From NCBI GenBank assembly GCA_963793265.1, contig CAWBZI010000001.1, positions 576,001 to 640,000 of the forward strand: 64,000 nt of DNA, written 5' to 3'. Both the position numbers and the translations under genes were made by a program. Positions 6,435 through 47,961 of the stretch are shown here, one piece after another. This DNA comes from an uncultured cyanobacterium (GTDB lineage Bacteria > Cyanobacteriota > Cyanobacteriia > Phormidesmidales > Phormidesmidaceae). The stretch's first letter is position 1; each line of letters begins with the position of its first letter. Below the pieces are notes generated by a model that was not told the origin of the DNA, searched no databases, and saw nothing but the letters and a program-made list of their open reading frames with translations.

Positions 6435-6507
6435 GCGTCCTTAGTTCAGTTGGTAGAACGTCGGTCTCCAAAACCGAATGTCGGGGGTTCGAGTCCCTCA
6501 GGGCGTG
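6435..6507 (+). tRNA. trnW: tRNA-Trp (CCA)
   Basis: Acceptor stem GCGTCCT/AGGGCGT, D-arm AGTTCAGTTGGTAGAAC, anticodon arm TCGGT-CTCCAAA-ACCGA, T-loop GGTTCGAGTCC; usual position before secE; no encoded 3' CCA. Confidence 0.96.
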
Positions 6508-8884: not shown

Positions 8885-8980
8885 GCTAGTAAATAGCTTA
8901 TCGTCAGCTAGCAAAATCATTGTTTTAATGTCTTAGACCTAACAACTGTATGGTTCAACCTCAAAATTGAATATTGCACA

Positions 8981-9139
8981 CCAGAGACAGTGGGTGCGGC
9001 TAGTGGGATTCTCCCTGCTGCTGCTTAAATTACCCACCGAGGTTGCGTTAGAAGGTTTTCATACCGCTTTCAATTTAGAGAGTCATGAATAGATCTTTGA
9101 GACGTTTGCCCCGCTCTGGTTGTCAGGTCGGGGCTTTTT
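8981..9139 (+). ncRNA. L10 leader cis-regulatory RNA with attenuator-like hairpin
   Basis: CCAGAGACAGTGGGTG...TTAAATTACCCACCGAGGT core, then a GCCCCG...CGGGGC-TTTTT hairpin (9108-9139) upstream of rplJ. Confidence 0.8.
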
Positions 9140-9248
9140 AATGAGACGCTTTTCAACAAAACTAAGCGCTTGCTCTTGAAAGACATGTGACACTCACAGG
9201 GTCTTTTTGCAGAGCATAAAAATCTAAACAAAAAGGAGGTGAAATGAA

Positions 9249-40766: not shown

Positions 40767-41750
40767 CTAAGCGACTGGTGGGCGACGGCGAGTTGCACCC
40801 AAGCCTGCGGCAAGTAAACCCACGCTAATTAGAGACATAGACATAGGTTCAGGAACCGGCTGCGCGGCGACTTCTCTGAATGTGCCTGCGGCAACAGGCG
40901 CTGTGAGACGGAAGACTTGACCGTCACCGACATCGACACCGAGAGGAGCGCCACTGCCTGCGGCTGTGACTGCTGCGTCAATAGGATTAGAAATCTCTGC
41001 GGGGAGCGTTAGTCCGTGAATCACAATCTCTCGGAAATCGAGAGGATTCAAGTTGTTGTATTGACGAGCCTGATCGGCATCAGATAGATCGAAGCTATAG
41101 GTAGTATCTAGAACAAACTCTGTACCACTTGGAAAAAGCTCGCCAGGATTGATTTCCCCAGCACCCGCTCTTTGCAAGAACTGAGTAAGTGGTGGCAGGC
41201 CAGAGGGTGGCGCAGGCTGCTGCTCAGAGGACAGATTCAAAATCACTGGGCCGTAGGCAGGACGACCTTCAATAAAGTTGAGATAGCCATCGCCATCAGC
41301 ATCATCCATGGCCAGCGTAGGCAGCCTTGATGGCACGGGCCTGCCACCAGTTCCGGCAAAGAAAGGGCCGTTGCCCTGCTCGAATAAAGGCAAAGAGGCA
41401 TTGCCTAGAAACTGACCGTGAATGTGGGCAACGTGAACGCCGCCAAACTCAGTCAGGTCTTGCAGTCCAGTGACGTTGACTTTAACTTGTAGGCTCGCTG
41501 TGTTGGCGATGCTGTCAAGCGTTTCGATAATAGAGGCAGAGCCGGAAGCGCGAGAGCCAAAGGCACTGTTGAGCGTACCGATTTCGCTGGTGTAGGTGCT
41601 GGTAGAAAGATGTGCAGCGAGTGCGGATAATGGCAGTGTAGCCGTCGCGGCAACGGCTGTCAGCGTGGAAAATAGCAGTGCTTTCAAGGCGGTTAATCCC
41701 TTTGAAGATGCTCTTAAGGCATTTCTATCTGGATTTTTGGCGATATGCAT
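40767..41750 (-). CDS. PEP-CTERM sorted exported protein with a His-rich (CHRD-like) motif
   Basis: Signal peptide; HVAHIHG, DADGDG and VIHG motifs; C-terminal VPEP, TM helix, RRR. Confidence 0.85.
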   Translation of the reverse strand: MHIAKNPDRNALRASSKGLTALKALLFSTLTAVAATATLPLSALAAHLSTSTYTSEIGTLNSAFGSRASGSASIIETLDSIANTASLQVKVNVTGLQDLTEFGGVHVAHIHGQFLGNASLPLFEQGNGPFFAGTGGRPVPSRLPTLAMDDADGDGYLNFIEGRPAYGPVILNLSSEQQPAPPSGLPPLTQFLQRAGAGEINPGELFPSGTEFVLDTTYSFDLSDADQARQYNNLNPLDFREIVIHGLTLPAEISNPIDAAVTAAGSGAPLGVDVGDGQVFRLTAPVAAGTFREVAAQPVPEPMSMSLISVGLLAAGLGATRRRPPVA

Positions 41751-42035: not shown

Positions 42036-42647
42036 ATGTCTTTACCGCTATCTAATAGCTCTAGCTCTGAGTCGTCAGTACACAAAGACTCAGCAGATAC
42101 GGTTGTATATGCAGCACTCGAGCGCGGCGACGCCAAAGCTTTAGGCATTTTGTATGACCGCCATGCGGGGCTAGTATATGCCATTGCTCTCAAGGTTTTG
42201 AGCAATACGCAAGCAGCAGAAGATTTGACCCAAGACATCTTTGTGATGCTTGCAAACACGAAGCAGTACAACCCCAAAAGAGGCGCACTACGGACTTATC
42301 TAGCGGTTTTAACCCGGTCACGGGCTATTGATCGGCTGCGTTCAAAGGGGGCAGCTTCTCGCAAAATTAACCGGCTCCAAAGTCTTCAGTCGCGATCGCC
42401 CACAGACAACGTACCGCTAGAGAAAGTCAGCCAGTACGAACAAAATTACACCGTACGGGAGGCGCTATGTCAGCTTTCAACTGAAGAACAGCAGATTTTG
42501 AACATGATGTATTTTGAAGGGCTTAGCCAGTCGGCAGTTTCGCAAACGCTAGGTGTTCCGTTGGGAACAGTAAAAACAAGATCTCGTCGGGGACTAACAA
42601 AACTGCGACAGATTTTAGGCGATTCTGTTCTTACGGACAAAGCTTAG
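42036..42647 (+). CDS. ECF RNA polymerase sigma factor (SigK-like)
   Basis: AEDLTQDIF, RSRAIDRLR, YFEGLSQSAVS...PLGTVKTRSRRGL. Confidence 0.92.
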   Translation: MSLPLSNSSSSESSVHKDSADTVVYAALERGDAKALGILYDRHAGLVYAIALKVLSNTQAAEDLTQDIFVMLANTKQYNPKRGALRTYLAVLTRSRAIDRLRSKGAASRKINRLQSLQSRSPTDNVPLEKVSQYEQNYTVREALCQLSTEEQQILNMMYFEGLSQSAVSQTLGVPLGTVKTRSRRGLTKLRQILGDSVLTDKA

Positions 42648-42650
42648 AAG

Positions 42651-42679
42651 GAATCCACATCTATCATAAGAAGCGTACC
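42651..42679 (+). promoter_or_regulatory. Putative ECF promoter of the anti-sigma gene
   Basis: GAATCC-N17-CGTACC. Confidence 0.55.
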
Positions 42680-42722
42680 TAGTTTAGTAGTTCCATTCAC
42701 TTCCCTTTAACAAGGCGACTTG

Positions 42723-43544
42723 ATGAGTCAGTCATCACCAGCAGAAAATATATCTTCTCTCGTCGCAGGGTATGTACTCGGCACGCTAGATGATGTCGAG
42801 GCAGAGATGTTTGCCCAGCTTGTGCTGGAAGATCCCACGGTGCTAGAAGAAGTTGACCAAATGCAGGCGGTGCTAGAGCAGACTTACGCGATAGAAGAAA
42901 TTGCACCGCCCTCTCAGCTTAGAGAAAAGGTTTTGGCAGCATCAGCGACATCGGCAGCGGTCGCTCAACCTACATCCCTATTCTCACAGCCTCTACAACC
43001 ACAACCTCTACAGCTACCAGAGCCTACGGTTGAGCAGCCACACACACGCTGGCGAAAAGCTGCTTTAGCTACCCTTGCTACAGTGCTAGGGCTTAGCGCG
43101 CTGACTAACTTTGTTCTATGGCGTCAGCTCAACCAACAAATCGCCACAGCCCCTAATAACCAAACGGTAGAGCAGAGCGCTGAGTCTTTAGACTATAGGC
43201 TAACCTCAACAGAACCAGCAGAAACGGGAACGGCTGAGGTGACCGTTGATCCAGCCAGCCTGACAGCTCAGATTCAAGCTCAAGAACTGCCAGCGATCGC
43301 ACCTGATAAAACCTACGTACTATGGGCCGTACTCAATCCAGAAGCCCCTTTCACCACTGATGAGAAAGGAGCCATCTTAACCACAGCTTTTCAGGTAGAC
43401 GAACAGGGCAACGCCAGCGAAACAACTTCAGTTCCCGCCGTATTCAGACAGCCCGAGCTGATTGTAGCCTTGGGCATCACGGTGGAATCTGCTGATTCGC
43501 CGCAGAGCCACACAGGCGCTCCCGTACTACTTTCACCGCTCTAG
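42723..43544 (+). CDS. Anti-sigma factor (RskA-like)
   Basis: LVAGYVLGTLD, PPSQLREKVL, single TM helix, C-terminal LPAIAPDKTYVLWA...LGITVE. Confidence 0.88.
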   Translation: MSQSSPAENISSLVAGYVLGTLDDVEAEMFAQLVLEDPTVLEEVDQMQAVLEQTYAIEEIAPPSQLREKVLAASATSAAVAQPTSLFSQPLQPQPLQLPEPTVEQPHTRWRKAALATLATVLGLSALTNFVLWRQLNQQIATAPNNQTVEQSAESLDYRLTSTEPAETGTAEVTVDPASLTAQIQAQELPAIAPDKTYVLWAVLNPEAPFTTDEKGAILTTAFQVDEQGNASETTSVPAVFRQPELIVALGITVESADSPQSHTGAPVLLSPL

Positions 43545-44104: not shown

Positions 44105-45958
44105 CTACTCACTTGCTGCTGGAGGTGCAACAGGAACAGCTTCAGGAGAGTTGTTTTCTTCGGGTACAGCAGGCGGCGCGGCGATTGGTTCAACGGGAGC
44201 ATCTACCGGAGCCCAAGTGCCGATATCCCAGGTACTCGTGTCCCAAGGTGTCGGGTCTACGCCAGTGATGCGATCGCTCAACCCATTAATCACCGCCCGA
44301 CGCACCAGCGGAATCACCACATAATCCTGCGCCAAAATAGTGTTCAACCGCTGAAAAAGAACACTTCTCTTATCAGGATCTAGCTCCTTACTCGCCTGCT
44401 CCCACACCTTGTCATATTCAGGATTACAGTAGCGGCCATTGTTTGGCCTTTGCCACTGATTTTTTTGAGAAGCAATCTCATCACATAGCCACCAGCTCAT
44501 ATAGATCGCAGGATCAGGCGTGTCGCTGCCCGTGTTGTACTCCTGCATATCTGCATAGAAGTGGTTGAGACTGCGAGTCTGAGACGGGTCGGCTGAAAAG
44601 AAGTCTTCGGCAACCACCCGGCTAATATCAACATCGATACCGACAGCCGCTAAGTCCTCTTTGATCATCTCCTGAGTTTGCTGGCGCACCGGATTGATTG
44701 GCGTTTGGAACACCATCCGCATTTCTTCGCCGTCTTTATCGCGAATCCCGTCTTCGTTAGTATCTACCCAACCGGCCTCATCCAGCAGTTTGTTAGCGCG
44801 CTCGGGGTCATGACGGTAGTAAATGCTAGGGTTCGCGTATTCTTCGGGGTAAGGAAGGAGCTGGTTCGTTCGCTGGCCTGCGTTGCCGTATACCTCGTAG
44901 GCGATCGCATCTCTATCAATCGCATAGTCCACTGCCTGACGCACTTTCACATCACTTAAAAAAGGATGCGGATTATCCACACTAGAGCGTTCACCCTTTT
45001 CAGTTTCTTCATTGGGATCGGTCAGGTTAAGCATCAGCCGCTCCACGTAAGCGCCAAACGTTGCAAACACGCGCCCGGCTCCACCTGCTGCTAGAGACTT
45101 GCGATCGTCAATACTGAGCTGTACGTTATGAGCGAAATCAGCGTCGCCATCGCGCAGCACTCGCTTTGCCGCCACATACGGCGTCACGCCGCCCTCTAGC
45201 TCCACAATTTTAAAAGCAGGTAGCCCGTCTCGAAACTGTTCGTTCGCCGCAAACGTCCACCGCCCATCCACAATTGTGATGAAGCGAAAAGGGCCAGTGC
45301 CCACTGGCTGCAAGTTTGCAGGCGCACTGCGAGCATTAATTCCCTTGGCACTCTCAAACACGTGCTTGGGCAAAATCATGCCGTTTTGCCCTGTGAACGG
45401 CAGCGCCCAAGAAGGATTGGGCTCTTTGAAAGTGATTTTCACAGTCAGCGGATCGACGGCCTCTACTTTCTCTATTGCCTCGTAGTACTTTTCTGTTACG
45501 GCTGCGACTTTCGGGTCGCTCACAAACTCGTAAGTAAAGACAACATCTTCAGCCGTAAAGGGCTGACCGTCTGACCAACGCACGTTGGGCTTTAATCGCC
45601 AGGTAACCGTGCGGCCATCCGCAGCAATGCCCCCATTTTCAGGCGTAGGAATCAGCTCAGCCAATACCGGCAGCAAATCGCCATTGGGCTCGTAAGTCGC
45701 TAGGGGTTCGTAGACAATTCTGGCGGCTTCAAAGTCTTGAAAGCCATTAGCCAAATGAGGATTTAGCGTCGTCGGAATTCGGCTGTACAGCAGCTTAAGA
45801 ACGTATTCATCGCGTACGTCTAGCTCAACCTGTTCGTTTGTTTTGTTCAGCGTAAAGGGTTCAGAGCTAACCACTTCTGTCGTGTTAGTAGACCTAGACT
45901 GACAGGCCGAGAGCGCTAGCAGCCCAGCTAAAGGAATCGCTAATAGAGAAAATCTCAT
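44105..45958 (-). CDS. Peptide/nickel ABC transporter substrate-binding lipoprotein (orphan)
   Basis: Lipobox LSAC; TLNPHL, VRWSDGQPFTAEDVVFTY, PVGTGPF, VRQAVDYAIDR. Confidence 0.92.
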   Translation of the reverse strand: MRFSLLAIPLAGLLALSACQSRSTNTTEVVSSEPFTLNKTNEQVELDVRDEYVLKLLYSRIPTTLNPHLANGFQDFEAARIVYEPLATYEPNGDLLPVLAELIPTPENGGIAADGRTVTWRLKPNVRWSDGQPFTAEDVVFTYEFVSDPKVAAVTEKYYEAIEKVEAVDPLTVKITFKEPNPSWALPFTGQNGMILPKHVFESAKGINARSAPANLQPVGTGPFRFITIVDGRWTFAANEQFRDGLPAFKIVELEGGVTPYVAAKRVLRDGDADFAHNVQLSIDDRKSLAAGGAGRVFATFGAYVERLMLNLTDPNEETEKGERSSVDNPHPFLSDVKVRQAVDYAIDRDAIAYEVYGNAGQRTNQLLPYPEEYANPSIYYRHDPERANKLLDEAGWVDTNEDGIRDKDGEEMRMVFQTPINPVRQQTQEMIKEDLAAVGIDVDISRVVAEDFFSADPSQTRSLNHFYADMQEYNTGSDTPDPAIYMSWWLCDEIASQKNQWQRPNNGRYCNPEYDKVWEQASKELDPDKRSVLFQRLNTILAQDYVVIPLVRRAVINGLSDRITGVDPTPWDTSTWDIGTWAPVDAPVEPIAAPPAVPEENNSPEAVPVAPPAASE

Positions 45959-46040
45959 CACAAACTTTGCACCCAAACTAAACACTCGCAGCTTATCAAC
46001 CTACTGGCTGTCTCAATATATTCAAACGCTGTTAGGGCAA

Positions 46041-46568
46041 TCAGCCATTACTCGACAAAAAAGGCAAGACTTCAGCAACCCGATCAGACACCTGCTCGCT
46101 CGAACGCCTCGCCCAATACTCGCTTAAAAAATGAATTTGCCGTAGCCCCACGATCAGATTTAAACCTGGAATAACAATCCACCAGCAAACTAAAGGCGCA
46201 CTCAATCCTTCAGCGACATACAGCCGGTTGATCTCTCGATACAGCCGATACTGAACGATATAAATCCATAAAACGCCTGAGAATGCCAGCCAGCTAAACC
46301 AGCTTGGCACATCTGGATCGAACCGAGCGAGCGCTAATGGCACGACAATGCCGAGGACGAAAGGAATAATGCATACTGCGCCTGACCATACGTTTGCGAT
46401 CGCCTCATCCGACTCAGATTGCTGAGCAGCGTAAGCTTTCAGCTCGTCTTGAATCATCCACTTGTAGTAGCCGTAATACAGCAGCCCAGACGCTACCGAG
46501 CGTAAAATGACGCGAGTTAAGGGGCGAGGTGTGCCCACAGCAGAGGTCGCCGGAGAAGTAGCAGTCAT
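46041..46568 (-). CDS. Hypothetical membrane protein (DUF4234-like)
   Basis: Several TM helices; LLYYGYYKW motif. Confidence 0.7.
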   Translation of the reverse strand: MTATSPATSAVGTPRPLTRVILRSVASGLLYYGYYKWMIQDELKAYAAQQSESDEAIANVWSGAVCIIPFVLGIVVPLALARFDPDVPSWFSWLAFSGVLWIYIVQYRLYREINRLYVAEGLSAPLVCWWIVIPGLNLIVGLRQIHFLSEYWARRSSEQVSDRVAEVLPFLSSNG

Positions 46569-46671
46569 GGAGAAAAAGGCACTAGCAAAAGTTTTTGTAT
46601 CCTAGCGCGAGTTGGAGCGCCTTGTTCTGAGATCTGTTTCGAGTAAATCTATGCCTCGTTTCAACAAAGTG

Positions 46672-46677
46672 TCCTGA
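46672..46677 (+). promoter_or_regulatory. DIF1-like -35 hexamer (TCCTGA), copy 1
   Basis: Starts 34 nt before the sRNA repeat start; same spacing in copy 2. Confidence 0.6.
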
Positions 46678-46705
46678 CTCAGCTAAGCAACTGAGTACTA
46701 ATAAT

Positions 46706-46814
46706 TGGTAGATGCACCCTGATGTTTCCTCGGCTGTCATACCCTCGGTTCACGCTTGAATTCACACTTTTGTGGCGATGCGTACTGTCGGTTGATTAGC
46801 TGAGGATTTTTTTT
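46706..46814 (+). ncRNA. nsiR1: NsiR1-like small RNA, copy 1 (long-stem variant)
   Basis: 5' TGGTAGATGCACCCTGA, then a TCCTCGGCT...AGCTGAGGA stem and T8 tail. Confidence 0.65.
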
Positions 46815-46839
46815 GTTTTTAGCTGGCTTGCCGTATTTG

Positions 46840-46845
46840 TCCTGA
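46840..46845 (+). promoter_or_regulatory. DIF1-like -35 hexamer (TCCTGA), copy 2
   Basis: Starts 34 nt before the second TGGTAGATGCACCCTGA. Confidence 0.6.
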
Positions 46846-46873
46846 ACCCAATCGCCGCCTTGGAATAGTTAAG

Positions 46874-46929
46874 TGGTAGATGCACCCTGACCATTCCCTG
46901 GCACTTTTTAGCGCTAGGGAATTTTTTTT
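46874..46929 (+). ncRNA. nsiR1: NsiR1-like small RNA, copy 2 (about 56 nt)
   Basis: TGGTAGATGCACCCTGA, hairpin TTCCCTGGCACT-TTTT-AGCGCTAGGGAA, T8 tail; size and layout match NsiR1 as recalled. Confidence 0.72.
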
Positions 46930-47001
46930 GCAAAAAAAGCCGCTAGCGAAGTAGCGACTTTCTTTCAACGATCATTCTTTCAACGATCAAAGGCGTCAGA
47001 A

Positions 47002-47508
47002 CTACGCAGACTCAGCCGCTGGTTCTTCAGCAGGTTTCTCCTCAGCAGCGGGTTCTACAGGTTCGTCACTAGCAACGGGAACCTCAGCAACCGGTTCAGT
47101 CGTTTCAACGGCTTCGGCAGCAGGTGCCGTTGATTCAGTCGTTTCGCTAGAGTCAGCAGCCACCGACTCACTGCCATCAGCCGCTTCAGTTTCAGAAACT
47201 TCGGGCACTTCAGGTTCAGCGACCTTTGCAGAAGGCTTAGGCCCACGTACTAAAGCAGGATTCATCGGCCCTTTAGGCTTATCGTCCTTGCCTCGGCCCT
47301 TACCTTTACGTCCCTTGCCTTTACCACCCCGACCACTGTCACGATCGTCGCGGCTATAGGTCTGACTCTGGCTTTCGCTTTGGCCTTCGCCGCTGTCTTT
47401 GCGATCAGCCTTCTTAATCGGTGGAGGCACGTTACTAACAGGTGCAGGCGTGGGCTCAGCCTGCTTTGCCGCCTCACGCTCACTTTTTTTGATAGGACGC
47501 TCTGCCAT
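47002..47508 (-). CDS. Low-complexity hypothetical protein
   Basis: MAERPIKKSER start, GKG/RG-rich basic patch, PMNPALVRGPKP motif, acidic tail. Confidence 0.75.
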   Translation of the reverse strand: MAERPIKKSEREAAKQAEPTPAPVSNVPPPIKKADRKDSGEGQSESQSQTYSRDDRDSGRGGKGKGRKGKGRGKDDKPKGPMNPALVRGPKPSAKVAEPEVPEVSETEAADGSESVAADSSETTESTAPAAEAVETTEPVAEVPVASDEPVEPAAEEKPAEEPAAESA

Positions 47509-47577
47509 CGATCTCTCCGCTGTATTACGTAAATTGCCAATTAATGGTATCACGTGCGATTGAGAGAAAAGCGCAGC

Positions 47578-47961
47578 TTAGCTAGGTGGCCAGCCATCGT
47601 CCGTTTGAGGAAGCGGGCTTTCGCTGCCCAGCAAAGGCGTTTCACCGTCAGAAGATGCGTCAATTGTCTTGCCTACTTCGCCGTTGTCCAGCACTGCTTC
47701 AGGATCAAAGTTCAGACCTAGTACATCAATCAGCGCGTCTTCATCTGAGTTGAGCTGATAGAACGGCACCATTAGGTTAGAAAGCTTAGGCTCTAGGGCA
47801 TTAACAACGCCTAGAATAAGGAATGAGGACGGTCGGCGTCCGCCTTCGGGTGTGCGTACGGAAGTCGTAGACATCTGAACTTCGAGCCAGGTACGGTTGG
47901 CGCGGAAGTAGTCCAGCCATTTGTCTCTGATAACCGAAGTAAAGTTCTCGAAAAAGGCCAT
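47578..47961 (-). CDS. DUF5331-like cyanobacterial protein
   Basis: IRDKWLDYFRANRTWL...GGRRPSSFLILGVVNALEPKL...LGLNFDP. Confidence 0.8.
   Translation of the reverse strand: MAFFENFTSVIRDKWLDYFRANRTWLEVQMSTTSVRTPEGGRRPSSFLILGVVNALEPKLSNLMVPFYQLNSDEDALIDVLGLNFDPEAVLDNGEVGKTIDASSDGETPLLGSESPLPQTDDGWPPS

What the first reader, a model, noticed from the sequence alone, without database searches (positions are those of the whole stretch)
46672..46929. Tandem pair of NsiR1-like sRNA units with DIF1-like promoters, with no hetF nearby
Seen: the exact 17-mer TGGTAGATGCACCCTGA occurs at 46706 and 46874. Each copy has TCCTGA starting exactly 34 nt upstream and ends in a stem plus T8, so each looks like a self-contained transcription unit. 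Copy 2 is about 56 nt; copy 1 carries an extra ~50-nt insert inside its terminal stem. Recalled knowledge: NsiR1 of Nostocales is a ~60-nt HetR/NtcA-dependent sRNA in tandem repeats upstream of hetF, driven by TCCGGA (DIF1) promoters. Inference: this is a minimal two-copy array in a different context (between a DUF4234-like gene and a DUF5331-like locus), possibly in a non-heterocystous host, and may represent an ancestral form of the differentiation sRNA circuit.
Basis: partly seen in the sequence, partly recalled or inferred. Interest (0 to 1): 0.82.

Follow-up and report, generated by a model that had tools for sequence, protein, structure and literature searches.

The report
Two NsiR1 RNA genes, heterocyst-less host
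These are two real genes for NsiR1, a small regulatory RNA known from cyanobacteria that build nitrogen-fixing heterocyst cells, found here in a filamentous relative that most likely builds none; the RNA follows the regulators HetZ and HetR rather than heterocysts, which gives a way to test what those regulators do in such organisms.

Summary
Observation confirmed. Both units pass the Rfam NsiR1 cut-off (53.5 and 45.9 bits; cut-off 39). Each has a sigma-HetZ-type promoter, TCCTGA-N16-AGTA/GGAA, and a terminator. The promoter boxes are kept across a variable spacer at 18 of 18 syntenic same-genus loci. Copy 1's extra ~50 nt is an unconserved stem extension.

The host is Phormidesmis-like, with hetR, hetZ, patX and nifH but no HetP family. 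Its hetF is unlinked, and it has three more dispersed copies.

The pair is neither minimal nor ancestral. Across 151 cyanobacterial genomes, NsiR1 occurs in all 84 with HetZ-family genes; only 3 of these are in the heterocyst family. Copies fall into two promoter classes. DIF1 type (this pair): 82 genomes. HetR-box type, mostly after gatB: 69 genomes. Neither promoter type was found in the 67 genomes without HetZ.

Non-heterocystous homologs are already in a 2016 supplementary table and a Limnospira paper. I did not find the two-class split in print. This scan reported both points before on other DNA. Expression is untested and no convincing target was found; hetF is a weak candidate.

The parts
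46672..46677 (+). -35 element of copy 1, TCCTGA (variant of the DIF1 / sigma-HetZ motif TCCGGA)
   Evidence: conserved while the spacer varies; sigma-HetZ consensus in PMC13342950
46694..46697 (+). -10 element of copy 1, AGTA, 16 nt after the -35 element
   Evidence: GTA invariant in alignment A2; fits TGnA with the substitutions the paper tolerates
46706..46814 (+). NsiR1 copy 1, about 107-109 nt: conserved 5' seed (46708-46722), long terminator hairpin (46727-46806) with an unconserved extension, U8 tail. The 5' end is inferred at or near 46708 by analogy with the Nostoc start site.
   Evidence: RF02399 45.9 bits; fold; length 46-107 nt among orthologs; Nostoc start at the G of the seed
46840..46845 (+). 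-35 element of copy 2, TCCTGA
46862..46865 (+). -10 element of copy 2, GGAA, 16 nt after the -35 element
46874..46929 (+). NsiR1 copy 2, about 54-56 nt, canonical size: seed, hairpin, U8 tail
   Evidence: RF02399 53.5 bits; fold z -3.48; present at 18 of 18 syntenic genus loci
46041..46568 (-). Divergent left neighbour, 175-aa protein, no family hit; dispensable for the locus
   Evidence: found at 5 of 18 genus loci
47002..47553 (-). Convergent right neighbour, acidic low-complexity protein, no family hit
   Evidence: found at 16 of 18 genus loci
47578..47961 (-). DUF5331 gene, marker of the syntenic locus
   Evidence: PF17265, E 4e-48; found at 18 of 18 genus loci

Best explanation
The two units are independent NsiR1 small-RNA genes of the DIF1 promoter class ('class A'). 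Inferred: RNA polymerase carrying sigma-HetZ reads TCCTGA-N16-(A/G)G(T/A)A, starts at or near the G of the conserved seed (about 46708 and 46876) and stops at the hairpin plus U-tract, giving RNAs of about 107 and 54 nt. The working part is the single-stranded 15-nt 5' seed; the hairpin serves termination and stability, so copy 1's extension is neutral. The host is a hetR+, hetZ+, patX+, nifH+ filamentous cyanobacterium without HetP-family genes. The pair is two of five copies that feed the same seed: four DIF1-type and one behind a HetR box. Most likely action (inferred from Nostoc): trans base-pairing that damps translation of mRNAs in the HetR/sigma-HetZ module in cells where sigma-HetZ is active. 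The hetF start region is the best, but weak, candidate. Shown here: family membership, conserved promoter and terminator, gene content, distribution. Inferred, with odds: real transcribed genes ~0.95; sigma-HetZ dependence ~0.85; base-pairing mode ~0.6; hetF as a target ~0.25.
For: Rfam hits above cut-off. All 31 copies detected at the window locus and 18 same-genus syntenic loci carry exact TCCTGA at -34 (27) or -35 (4), then a free 16-17-nt spacer, then a conserved xGTA/xGAA. That scan required a near-TCCTGA; the unfiltered scan gave the same copies plus one divergent one. The geometry fits the sigma-HetZ consensus TCCGGA-N16-17-TGNA-N7-9-T, in which G-32, T-13 and T-11 can be replaced (PMC13342950 passages). 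That paper's supplement used an nsiR1 promoter for the consensus and lists a HetZ ChIP peak over nsiR1(1-12) that falls in the hetZ mutant. The host's own patX gene, before hetR, has the same TCCTGA-N16-CGTA layout (read from the sequence printed; RGSGR ORF). Host genes: hetZ 599 bits against cut-off 550, hetR, nifH, no HetP family where 3 of 3 heterocyst-family genomes have it. In one draw of 151 genomes, the DIF1+seed pattern is in 82, all among the 84 with HetZ-family genes, and in 0 of 67 without. It includes two genomes where hetR was not found.
Against: No transcript data for this organism. The same supplement row lists nsiR1 as 'up' in the hetZ4-201 mutant RNA-seq, against simple sigma-HetZ dependence; the paper calls that mutant leaky because of a paralog, sigma-HetZ', and the host has a second HetZ-family gene. 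No conserved target was found. The 11-nt match between copy 1 and the host's hetF start region (top 0.1% of 2579 gene starts) is not conserved: the exact 8-mer is in 0 of 24 genus relatives and a 6-mer in 12 of 24. It overlaps a purine-rich ribosome-binding-like stretch and ranks only near 0.2 against shuffled sRNAs. The known trans target class (hetP-like alr3234) is missing. The co-occurrence counts are across related genomes and are not independent.
Confidence: 0.72

Rival explanations
1. The genes and promoters are as described, but the invariant seed works by binding a protein or another RNA (sponge or decoy). Many copies under two regulators would then set the dose, not mRNA pairing.
For: The seed is held invariant across all HetZ-bearing lineages, although both known Nostoc target arrangements (cis hetF overlap, hetP-like gene) are missing here. 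No conserved complementary site was found. NsiR1 was enriched in PatR CLIP-seq in Nostoc (PMC11797042 passages).
Against: Base-pairing of NsiR1 with alr3234 was shown by reporter assay and footprinting, and inhibition of hetF translation is reported (PMC9045159). PatR binds many sRNAs. My target search covered one genome plus two candidate genes, so it could miss a real target.
Confidence: 0.2
2. The pair is an ancestral, minimal form of the Nostoc hetF array.
For: Host most likely non-heterocystous; two tandem, self-contained units like those of the Nostoc array.
Against: Five copies in the genome. The tandem context was seen only in the genus, and copy 1 is missing at 6 of 18 genus loci. A hetF-antisense copy exists in 11 of 24 loci from other families, 9 of them outside the heterocyst family, but in 0 of 24 genus and 0 of 6 other family loci, which points to loss in this family.
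Confidence: 0.04
3. The units are silent relics or chance terminator-like repeats.
For: Copy 1 is lost or degraded in some relatives. Terminator hairpins give weak RF02399 hits in 13 of 14 control genomes at E up to 10.
Against: No control genome reaches the cut-off. Promoter boxes, seed and stems are conserved while spacer and loops drift. An NsiR1-like 57-nt RNA is reported as expressed in non-heterocystous Limnospira (PMC8400943 passages).
Confidence: 0.04

Closest known systems
NsiR1 of Nostoc/Anabaena sp. PCC 7120 (Rfam RF02399; PMC9045159 first part and passages, PMC4030482 passage; Ionescu 2010 not held, known only as cited)
   Same: Same 5' seed, about 55-60 nt, intrinsic terminator, each copy with its own DIF1-type promoter at about -35, tandem siblings that differ just behind the seed.
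   Different: Two copies, not twelve; not next to or antisense to hetF; TCCTGA instead of TCCGGA; copy 1 has a stem about 50 nt longer; the host has no HetP-family gene (so no alr3234-type target) and most likely no heterocysts.
NsiR1 homologs already noted in non-heterocystous strains (PMC4734099 Table S3 row; RNA162 of Limnospira indica, PMC8400943 passages)
   Same: NsiR1-like sequence outside heterocyst formers: 38 of 89 genomes, of which 27 heterocystous, so 11 are not; the Limnospira RNA is reported as expressed.
   Different: In the passages and table rows I saw, neither source describes promoters, copy numbers, gene context, or the match with hetZ/hetR distribution.
Sigma-HetZ (DIF1) regulon and the HetR operator (PMC13342950 passages, discussion and supplement rows; PMC4192349 passages and one section)
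   Same: The window's promoters fit the sigma-HetZ consensus. The genome's fifth copy (G000:C1:191452) sits behind a GGG-N5-CCC palindrome resembling the hetP HetR site.
   Different: Both elements were defined experimentally in Anabaena PCC 7120; here they are only sequence matches. A HetR-box-driven NsiR1 class was not found in the papers searched.

Membership tests
NsiR1 RNA family (Rfam RF02399) | Covariance-model score above the gathering threshold | tested here: met
   53.5 and 45.9 bits against 39, full model 1-60
NsiR1 RNA family (Rfam RF02399) | Conserved 5' seed followed by hairpin and U-tract | tested here: met
   conserved in orthologs
NsiR1 RNA family (Rfam RF02399) | Own DIF1-type promoter per copy (-35 hexamer, 16-17 nt, -10) | tested here: met
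   TCCTGA-N16-AGTA/GGAA, one mismatch at a tolerated position; sequence match only
NsiR1 RNA family (Rfam RF02399) | Transcribed, induced on nitrogen step-down, dependent on HetR/HetZ | not testable with these tools
   needs RNA data or mutants of this organism
Nostoc hetF-linked nsiR1 array system | Tandem array upstream of hetF with one copy antisense to the hetF 5' UTR | tested here: not met
   hetF on C6, all five copies on C1; no antisense core within 420 nt of the host's hetF start or within 600 nt in 24 of 24 genus relatives
Nostoc hetF-linked nsiR1 array system | Heterocyst-forming host with HetP-like target alr3234 | tested here: not met
   no NF037966 match in G000 (98.97% complete) against 3 of 3 genomes of the heterocyst family; genus label Phormidesmis; morphology not observed
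Nostoc hetF-linked nsiR1 array system | Repression of hetF translation | tested here: inconclusive
   11-nt complement at the host's hetF start, only partly conserved
HetR-box NsiR1 class ('class B') | GGG-N5-CCC centred near -35, TAnnnT -10 box, GGAGAG-type stem, usually after gatB | tested here: not met
   the window copies are DIF1 type; the class-B copy of this genome is at G000:C1:191452

The most novel reading that the evidence does not exclude
NsiR1 is not a heterocyst RNA but a core, ancient output of the HetR/sigma-HetZ module of filamentous cyanobacteria. One invariant 15-nt seed is made from two promoter classes: sigma-HetZ-activated copies (this pair) and a gatB-linked copy whose -35 region is covered by a HetR operator. 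Because the box decays while the RNA and its -10 box persist in four genomes where hetR was not found, HetR may repress class B. The two classes would then give the same seed in opposite cell states, marking a hidden cell-state pattern in filaments without heterocysts and adding overlooked nsiR1 genes to heterocyst formers (class-B body in 142 of 151 genomes of that family). The seed's conserved target would be something other than the hetP-like gene.
Probability: 0.35. Interest if true: 0.7.

Novelty: new variant of a known kind. Interest (0 to 1): 0.4.

Why it matters
What hetR, hetZ and patX do in filamentous cyanobacteria without heterocysts is stated as open in PMC11298460 and PMC12669612 (passages). 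The review passages I read describe NsiR1 as an RNA of heterocyst formers. These ~40-nt promoters are compact, conserved candidates for sigma-HetZ reporters in such hosts, and a hetR deletion strain of a non-heterocystous Leptolyngbya already exists. A seed kept invariant where both known Nostoc target arrangements are missing implies an unidentified older target. The pair itself is an ordinary member of this wide family; the interest lies in the family-level picture.

Tried and rejected
Expression: no RNA holder was listed for window 45800-47800; this is no evidence either way, and no reads were laid. A search of the Trichodesmium transcriptome supplements (PMC4143802, 2 files) for the expected position or motif found nothing.

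Copy-1 insert as a functional domain: rejected. It is not unusually stable alone and is unconserved in length and sequence.

sdhC-like gene as target: this was the best duplex among 5125 start regions (-23.2 kcal/mol). Rejected: the site is one arm of a terminator hairpin after the upstream gene and is not kept in 13 of 13 orthologous regions.

hetF as trans target: kept only as a weak lead. hetR, hetZ and the second hetZ-family gene show no pairing site near their starts.

Linking class B to a published HetR ChIP peak at asr4228/alr4229 in PCC 7120: not established and dropped. Class-B sequence was not found in the PMC4734099 supplements held as text.

The sigma-70 promoter scan found no site at 46500-47100, as expected for a non-sigma-70 promoter. 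A class-B model on the 67 HetZ-negative genomes gave 1 strong hit and 4 weak ones; the one full-length weak hit lacks the seed.

Ionescu 2010, Videau 2014 and Mitschke 2011 were not held, and the 2020 Environ Microbiol NsiR1 paper was not read. They may bear on prior art. bioRxiv supplements are closed.

Full report
1. OBSERVATION. The 17-mer is exact at 46706 and 46874. With up to 3 mismatches the window has 3 matches where shuffles give 0.13. TCCTGA starts 34 nt upstream of each copy, and each unit ends in a hairpin and eight T. Both units pass the Rfam NsiR1 gathering score of 39 over the whole model: 53.5 bits (46874-46928) and 45.9 bits (46706-46814); none of 14 control genomes reaches it. 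Copy 1 folds as one long hairpin (z -2.91); its 52-nt middle alone is ordinary (z -0.53). The left neighbour has no family hit, and DUF5331 is the second gene on the right.

2. CONSERVATION OF THE LOCUS. All 24 same-genus genomes in the first draw have RF02399 matches. I fetched 18 same-genus loci, chosen by strong hits, and 2 from other genera of the family. All 18 are syntenic through DUF5331; the other 2 are not. Copy 2 is present at 18 of 18. Copy 1 is present at 11, plus one divergent copy seen, so 12 of 18. In the 31 copies listed (window included) the hexamer is exact TCCTGA at -34 (27) or -35 (4). A free 16-17-nt spacer follows, then a conserved xGTA (copy 1) or xGAA (copy 2). Conserved boxes across a drifting spacer are the footprint of a promoter. 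Copy 1 ranges from 46 to 107 nt, with unrelated stem extensions, so the insert is not a conserved domain.

3. PROMOTER TYPE. PMC13342950 (passages and discussion read) shows that HetZ is the sigma factor for DIF1 promoters, with consensus TCCGGA-N16-17-TGNA-N7-9-T and tolerated changes at G-32, T-13 and T-11. The window's promoters read TCCTGA-N16-AGTA-N8-T and TCCTGA-N16-GGAA-N8-T. Supplement rows of that paper include an nsiR1 promoter in the consensus and a HetZ ChIP peak over the PCC 7120 array, but also list nsiR1 as 'up' in the hetZ4-201 mutant, which does not fit simple dependence. The host's patX-like gene has the same TCCTGA-N16-xGTA layout. The lead to HetZ came from scan note e1-5235552; I tested it myself.

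4. HOST. G000 has 5.68 Mb and is 98.97% complete. A same-genus genome corresponds to a record titled Phormidesmis sp.. It has hetR (475.8 bits, just under the NCBIfam cut-off of 489), hetZ above cut-off plus a paralog and nifH. No HetP-family gene was found, against 3 of 3 genomes of family f32. I take f32 to be the heterocyst-forming family from HetP and its hetF-linked arrays; names are not shown. The hetF ortholog lies on contig C6, while five NsiR1 copies lie at four loci on C1: four above the cut-off and one at 23 bits. Morphology was not observed.

5. DISTRIBUTION. One draw of 151 genomes of the class (at least 90% complete) was searched five ways. RF02399 above cut-off: 83. hetR: 82. 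By my cross-count of the lists, both 81, RNA only 2, hetR only 1. HetZ family at E up to 1e-60: 84, namely the 83 plus G076. DIF1+seed pattern: 82, all within the 84. HetR-box+seed pattern: 69, all within the 84, including G076 and 68 of the 82 hetR genomes. None of the 67 HetZ-negative genomes has either pattern, and the reversed-pattern controls gave 0 and 1 hits. Only 3 of the 84 are f32. Kin are not independent, so these counts show co-distribution, not a statistical test.

6. TWO PROMOTER CLASSES. Of 203 distinct copies from the loci, 135 have a DIF1-like hexamer and 68 do not. A perfect GGG-N5-CCC near -35 is in 53 of the 68 and 0 of the 135. That motif is the reported HetR requirement, and the hetP site is a 17-bp palindrome of this form (PMC4192349 passages). 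This class B has a TAnnnT -10 box and a distinct stem with covariation (6 of 8 pairs with double changes, 0 of 500 shuffles; 41 of the 48 non-DIF1 loci aligned). It follows gatB at 22 clustered loci, including this genome's fifth copy. Its body is found in 142 of 151 f32 genomes; in the 30 loci fetched, 36 of 38 copies have the box with at most one mismatch and 0 of 38 have DIF1. Four genomes keep the RNA without the box, and hetR was not found in them. G034 is an exception, with a box but no hetR found. I reached this split; scan notes e1-7459211, e1-7459214 and e1-7750774 report the same on other DNA and are not independent support.

7. IS THE PAIR ANCESTRAL? An antisense seed within 600 nt upstream of hetF is in 11 of 24 loci from other families whose start I could place (5 of 29 not placed); 9 of the 11 are outside f32. 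It is in 0 of 24 genus and 0 of 6 other family loci. The hetF link is therefore older than heterocysts and probably lost here (inference; no tree was built). The tandem pair looks like a genus-level arrangement.

8. TARGETS. The best genome-wide duplex with the seed, before an sdhC-like gene, is an arm of a strain-specific terminator. The host's hetF start region has an 11-nt perfect complement to copy 1 at -25 to -14, in the top 0.1% of 2579 starts. In relatives only a 6-mer is kept, in 12 of 24 genus loci and 0 of 30 others. hetF start regions rank near the 8th percentile of gene starts in genus and class, against 53-74th for DUF5331 starts, but only near 0.2 against shuffled sRNAs. This is a lead, not a finding. 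In Nostoc, NsiR1 represses hetF and the hetP-like alr3234 by pairing (PMC9045159, first part and passages) and is bound by PatR (PMC11797042 passages); PatR was not looked for in the host.

9. MECHANISM. Most likely, sigma-HetZ polymerase makes two RNAs of about 107 and 54 nt, starting at or near the G of the seed as in Nostoc (Table S3 row). Their free 5' seed acts in trans on mRNAs of the HetR/HetZ module, while a HetR-controlled fifth copy supplies the same seed under different control. Family, promoters, gene content and distribution are shown by sequence. Transcription, regulation and targets are inferred.

10. PRIOR ART AND VERDICT. PMC6596454 and PMC4030482 (passages) describe NsiR1 in heterocyst formers. 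But PMC4734099 Table S3 lists homologs in 38 of 89 genomes, 27 of them heterocystous, and PMC8400943 reports an expressed NsiR1-like RNA in Limnospira (passages). So presence outside heterocyst formers is not new. The match with HetZ and the HetR-box class were not found in seven literature searches; three papers were not held and the 2020 Environ Microbiol paper was not read. The scan reported NsiR1 in non-heterocystous hosts several times before. Verdict: a real NsiR1 pair and a member of RF02399, but not of the hetF-linked array system. New variant of a known kind; interest 0.40, or 0.70 if the two-class, hidden-cell-state reading (probability about 0.35) holds.

Noticed in passing
G000:C1:191409-191513 (L005): Fifth NsiR1 copy, after gatB, behind the only intergenic match genome-wide to the strict HetR-box pattern I scanned; it scores only 23 bits on RF02399, so threshold-based annotation misses it.
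   Followed up: yes
G000:C1:1467011 (L003) and C1:1305103 (L004): Two further DIF1-type copies: one just upstream of a D-Ala-D-Ala ligase gene, one between two convergent genes (by recalled motifs cobM-like and lgt-like). Similar neighbours recur at 4 and 3 loci of other genomes, so these look like older orthologous loci.
   Followed up: partly
L134, L104, L110, L160: Class-B RNA body with a -10 box but without the HetR palindrome in records titled Microcystis, Hydrococcus and Chroococcidiopsis and in G102; hetR was not found in these four genomes.
   Followed up: partly
G034:C72:121056-121106: Exception: a perfect HetR box with class-B RNA and two HetZ-family genes, but no hetR found by two searches in a 99% complete, 80-contig genome.
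   Followed up: no
L061; family of G127: Class B itself forms tandem arrays: 7 copies in a Scytonema record, up to 8 matches per genome in the heterocyst family.
   Followed up: partly
G127:C1:2075757 and 4499768; G150:C33:168503 and C38:58972; G169:C109:185971: Genomes of the heterocyst family also hold dispersed DIF1-type copies outside the hetF array.
   Followed up: no
G000:C1:146733-147050: patX-like ORF with two RGSGR motifs directly before hetR, preceded by TCCTGA-N16-CGTA.
   Followed up: partly
G000:C1:1587722-1587760: Terminator-like hairpin between a cyclophilin-like gene and an sdhC-like gene (names from recalled motifs) whose arms resemble the NsiR1 seed and its complement; strain-specific.
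   Followed up: yes
window 46933-46956: Hairpin with an A7 run on its left, probably the minus-strand terminator of the gene at 47002-47553.
   Followed up: no
window 42036-43544: ECF sigma factor gene followed by an RskA-like anti-sigma gene.
   Followed up: no
window 40767-41750 (-): 327-aa protein with no Pfam hit, ending in a VPEP motif, hydrophobic stretch and basic tail that recall a PEP-CTERM sorting signal (recalled).
   Followed up: no
window 6435-6507 and 8963-9149: A tRNA gene and a ribosomal protein L10 leader.
   Followed up: no
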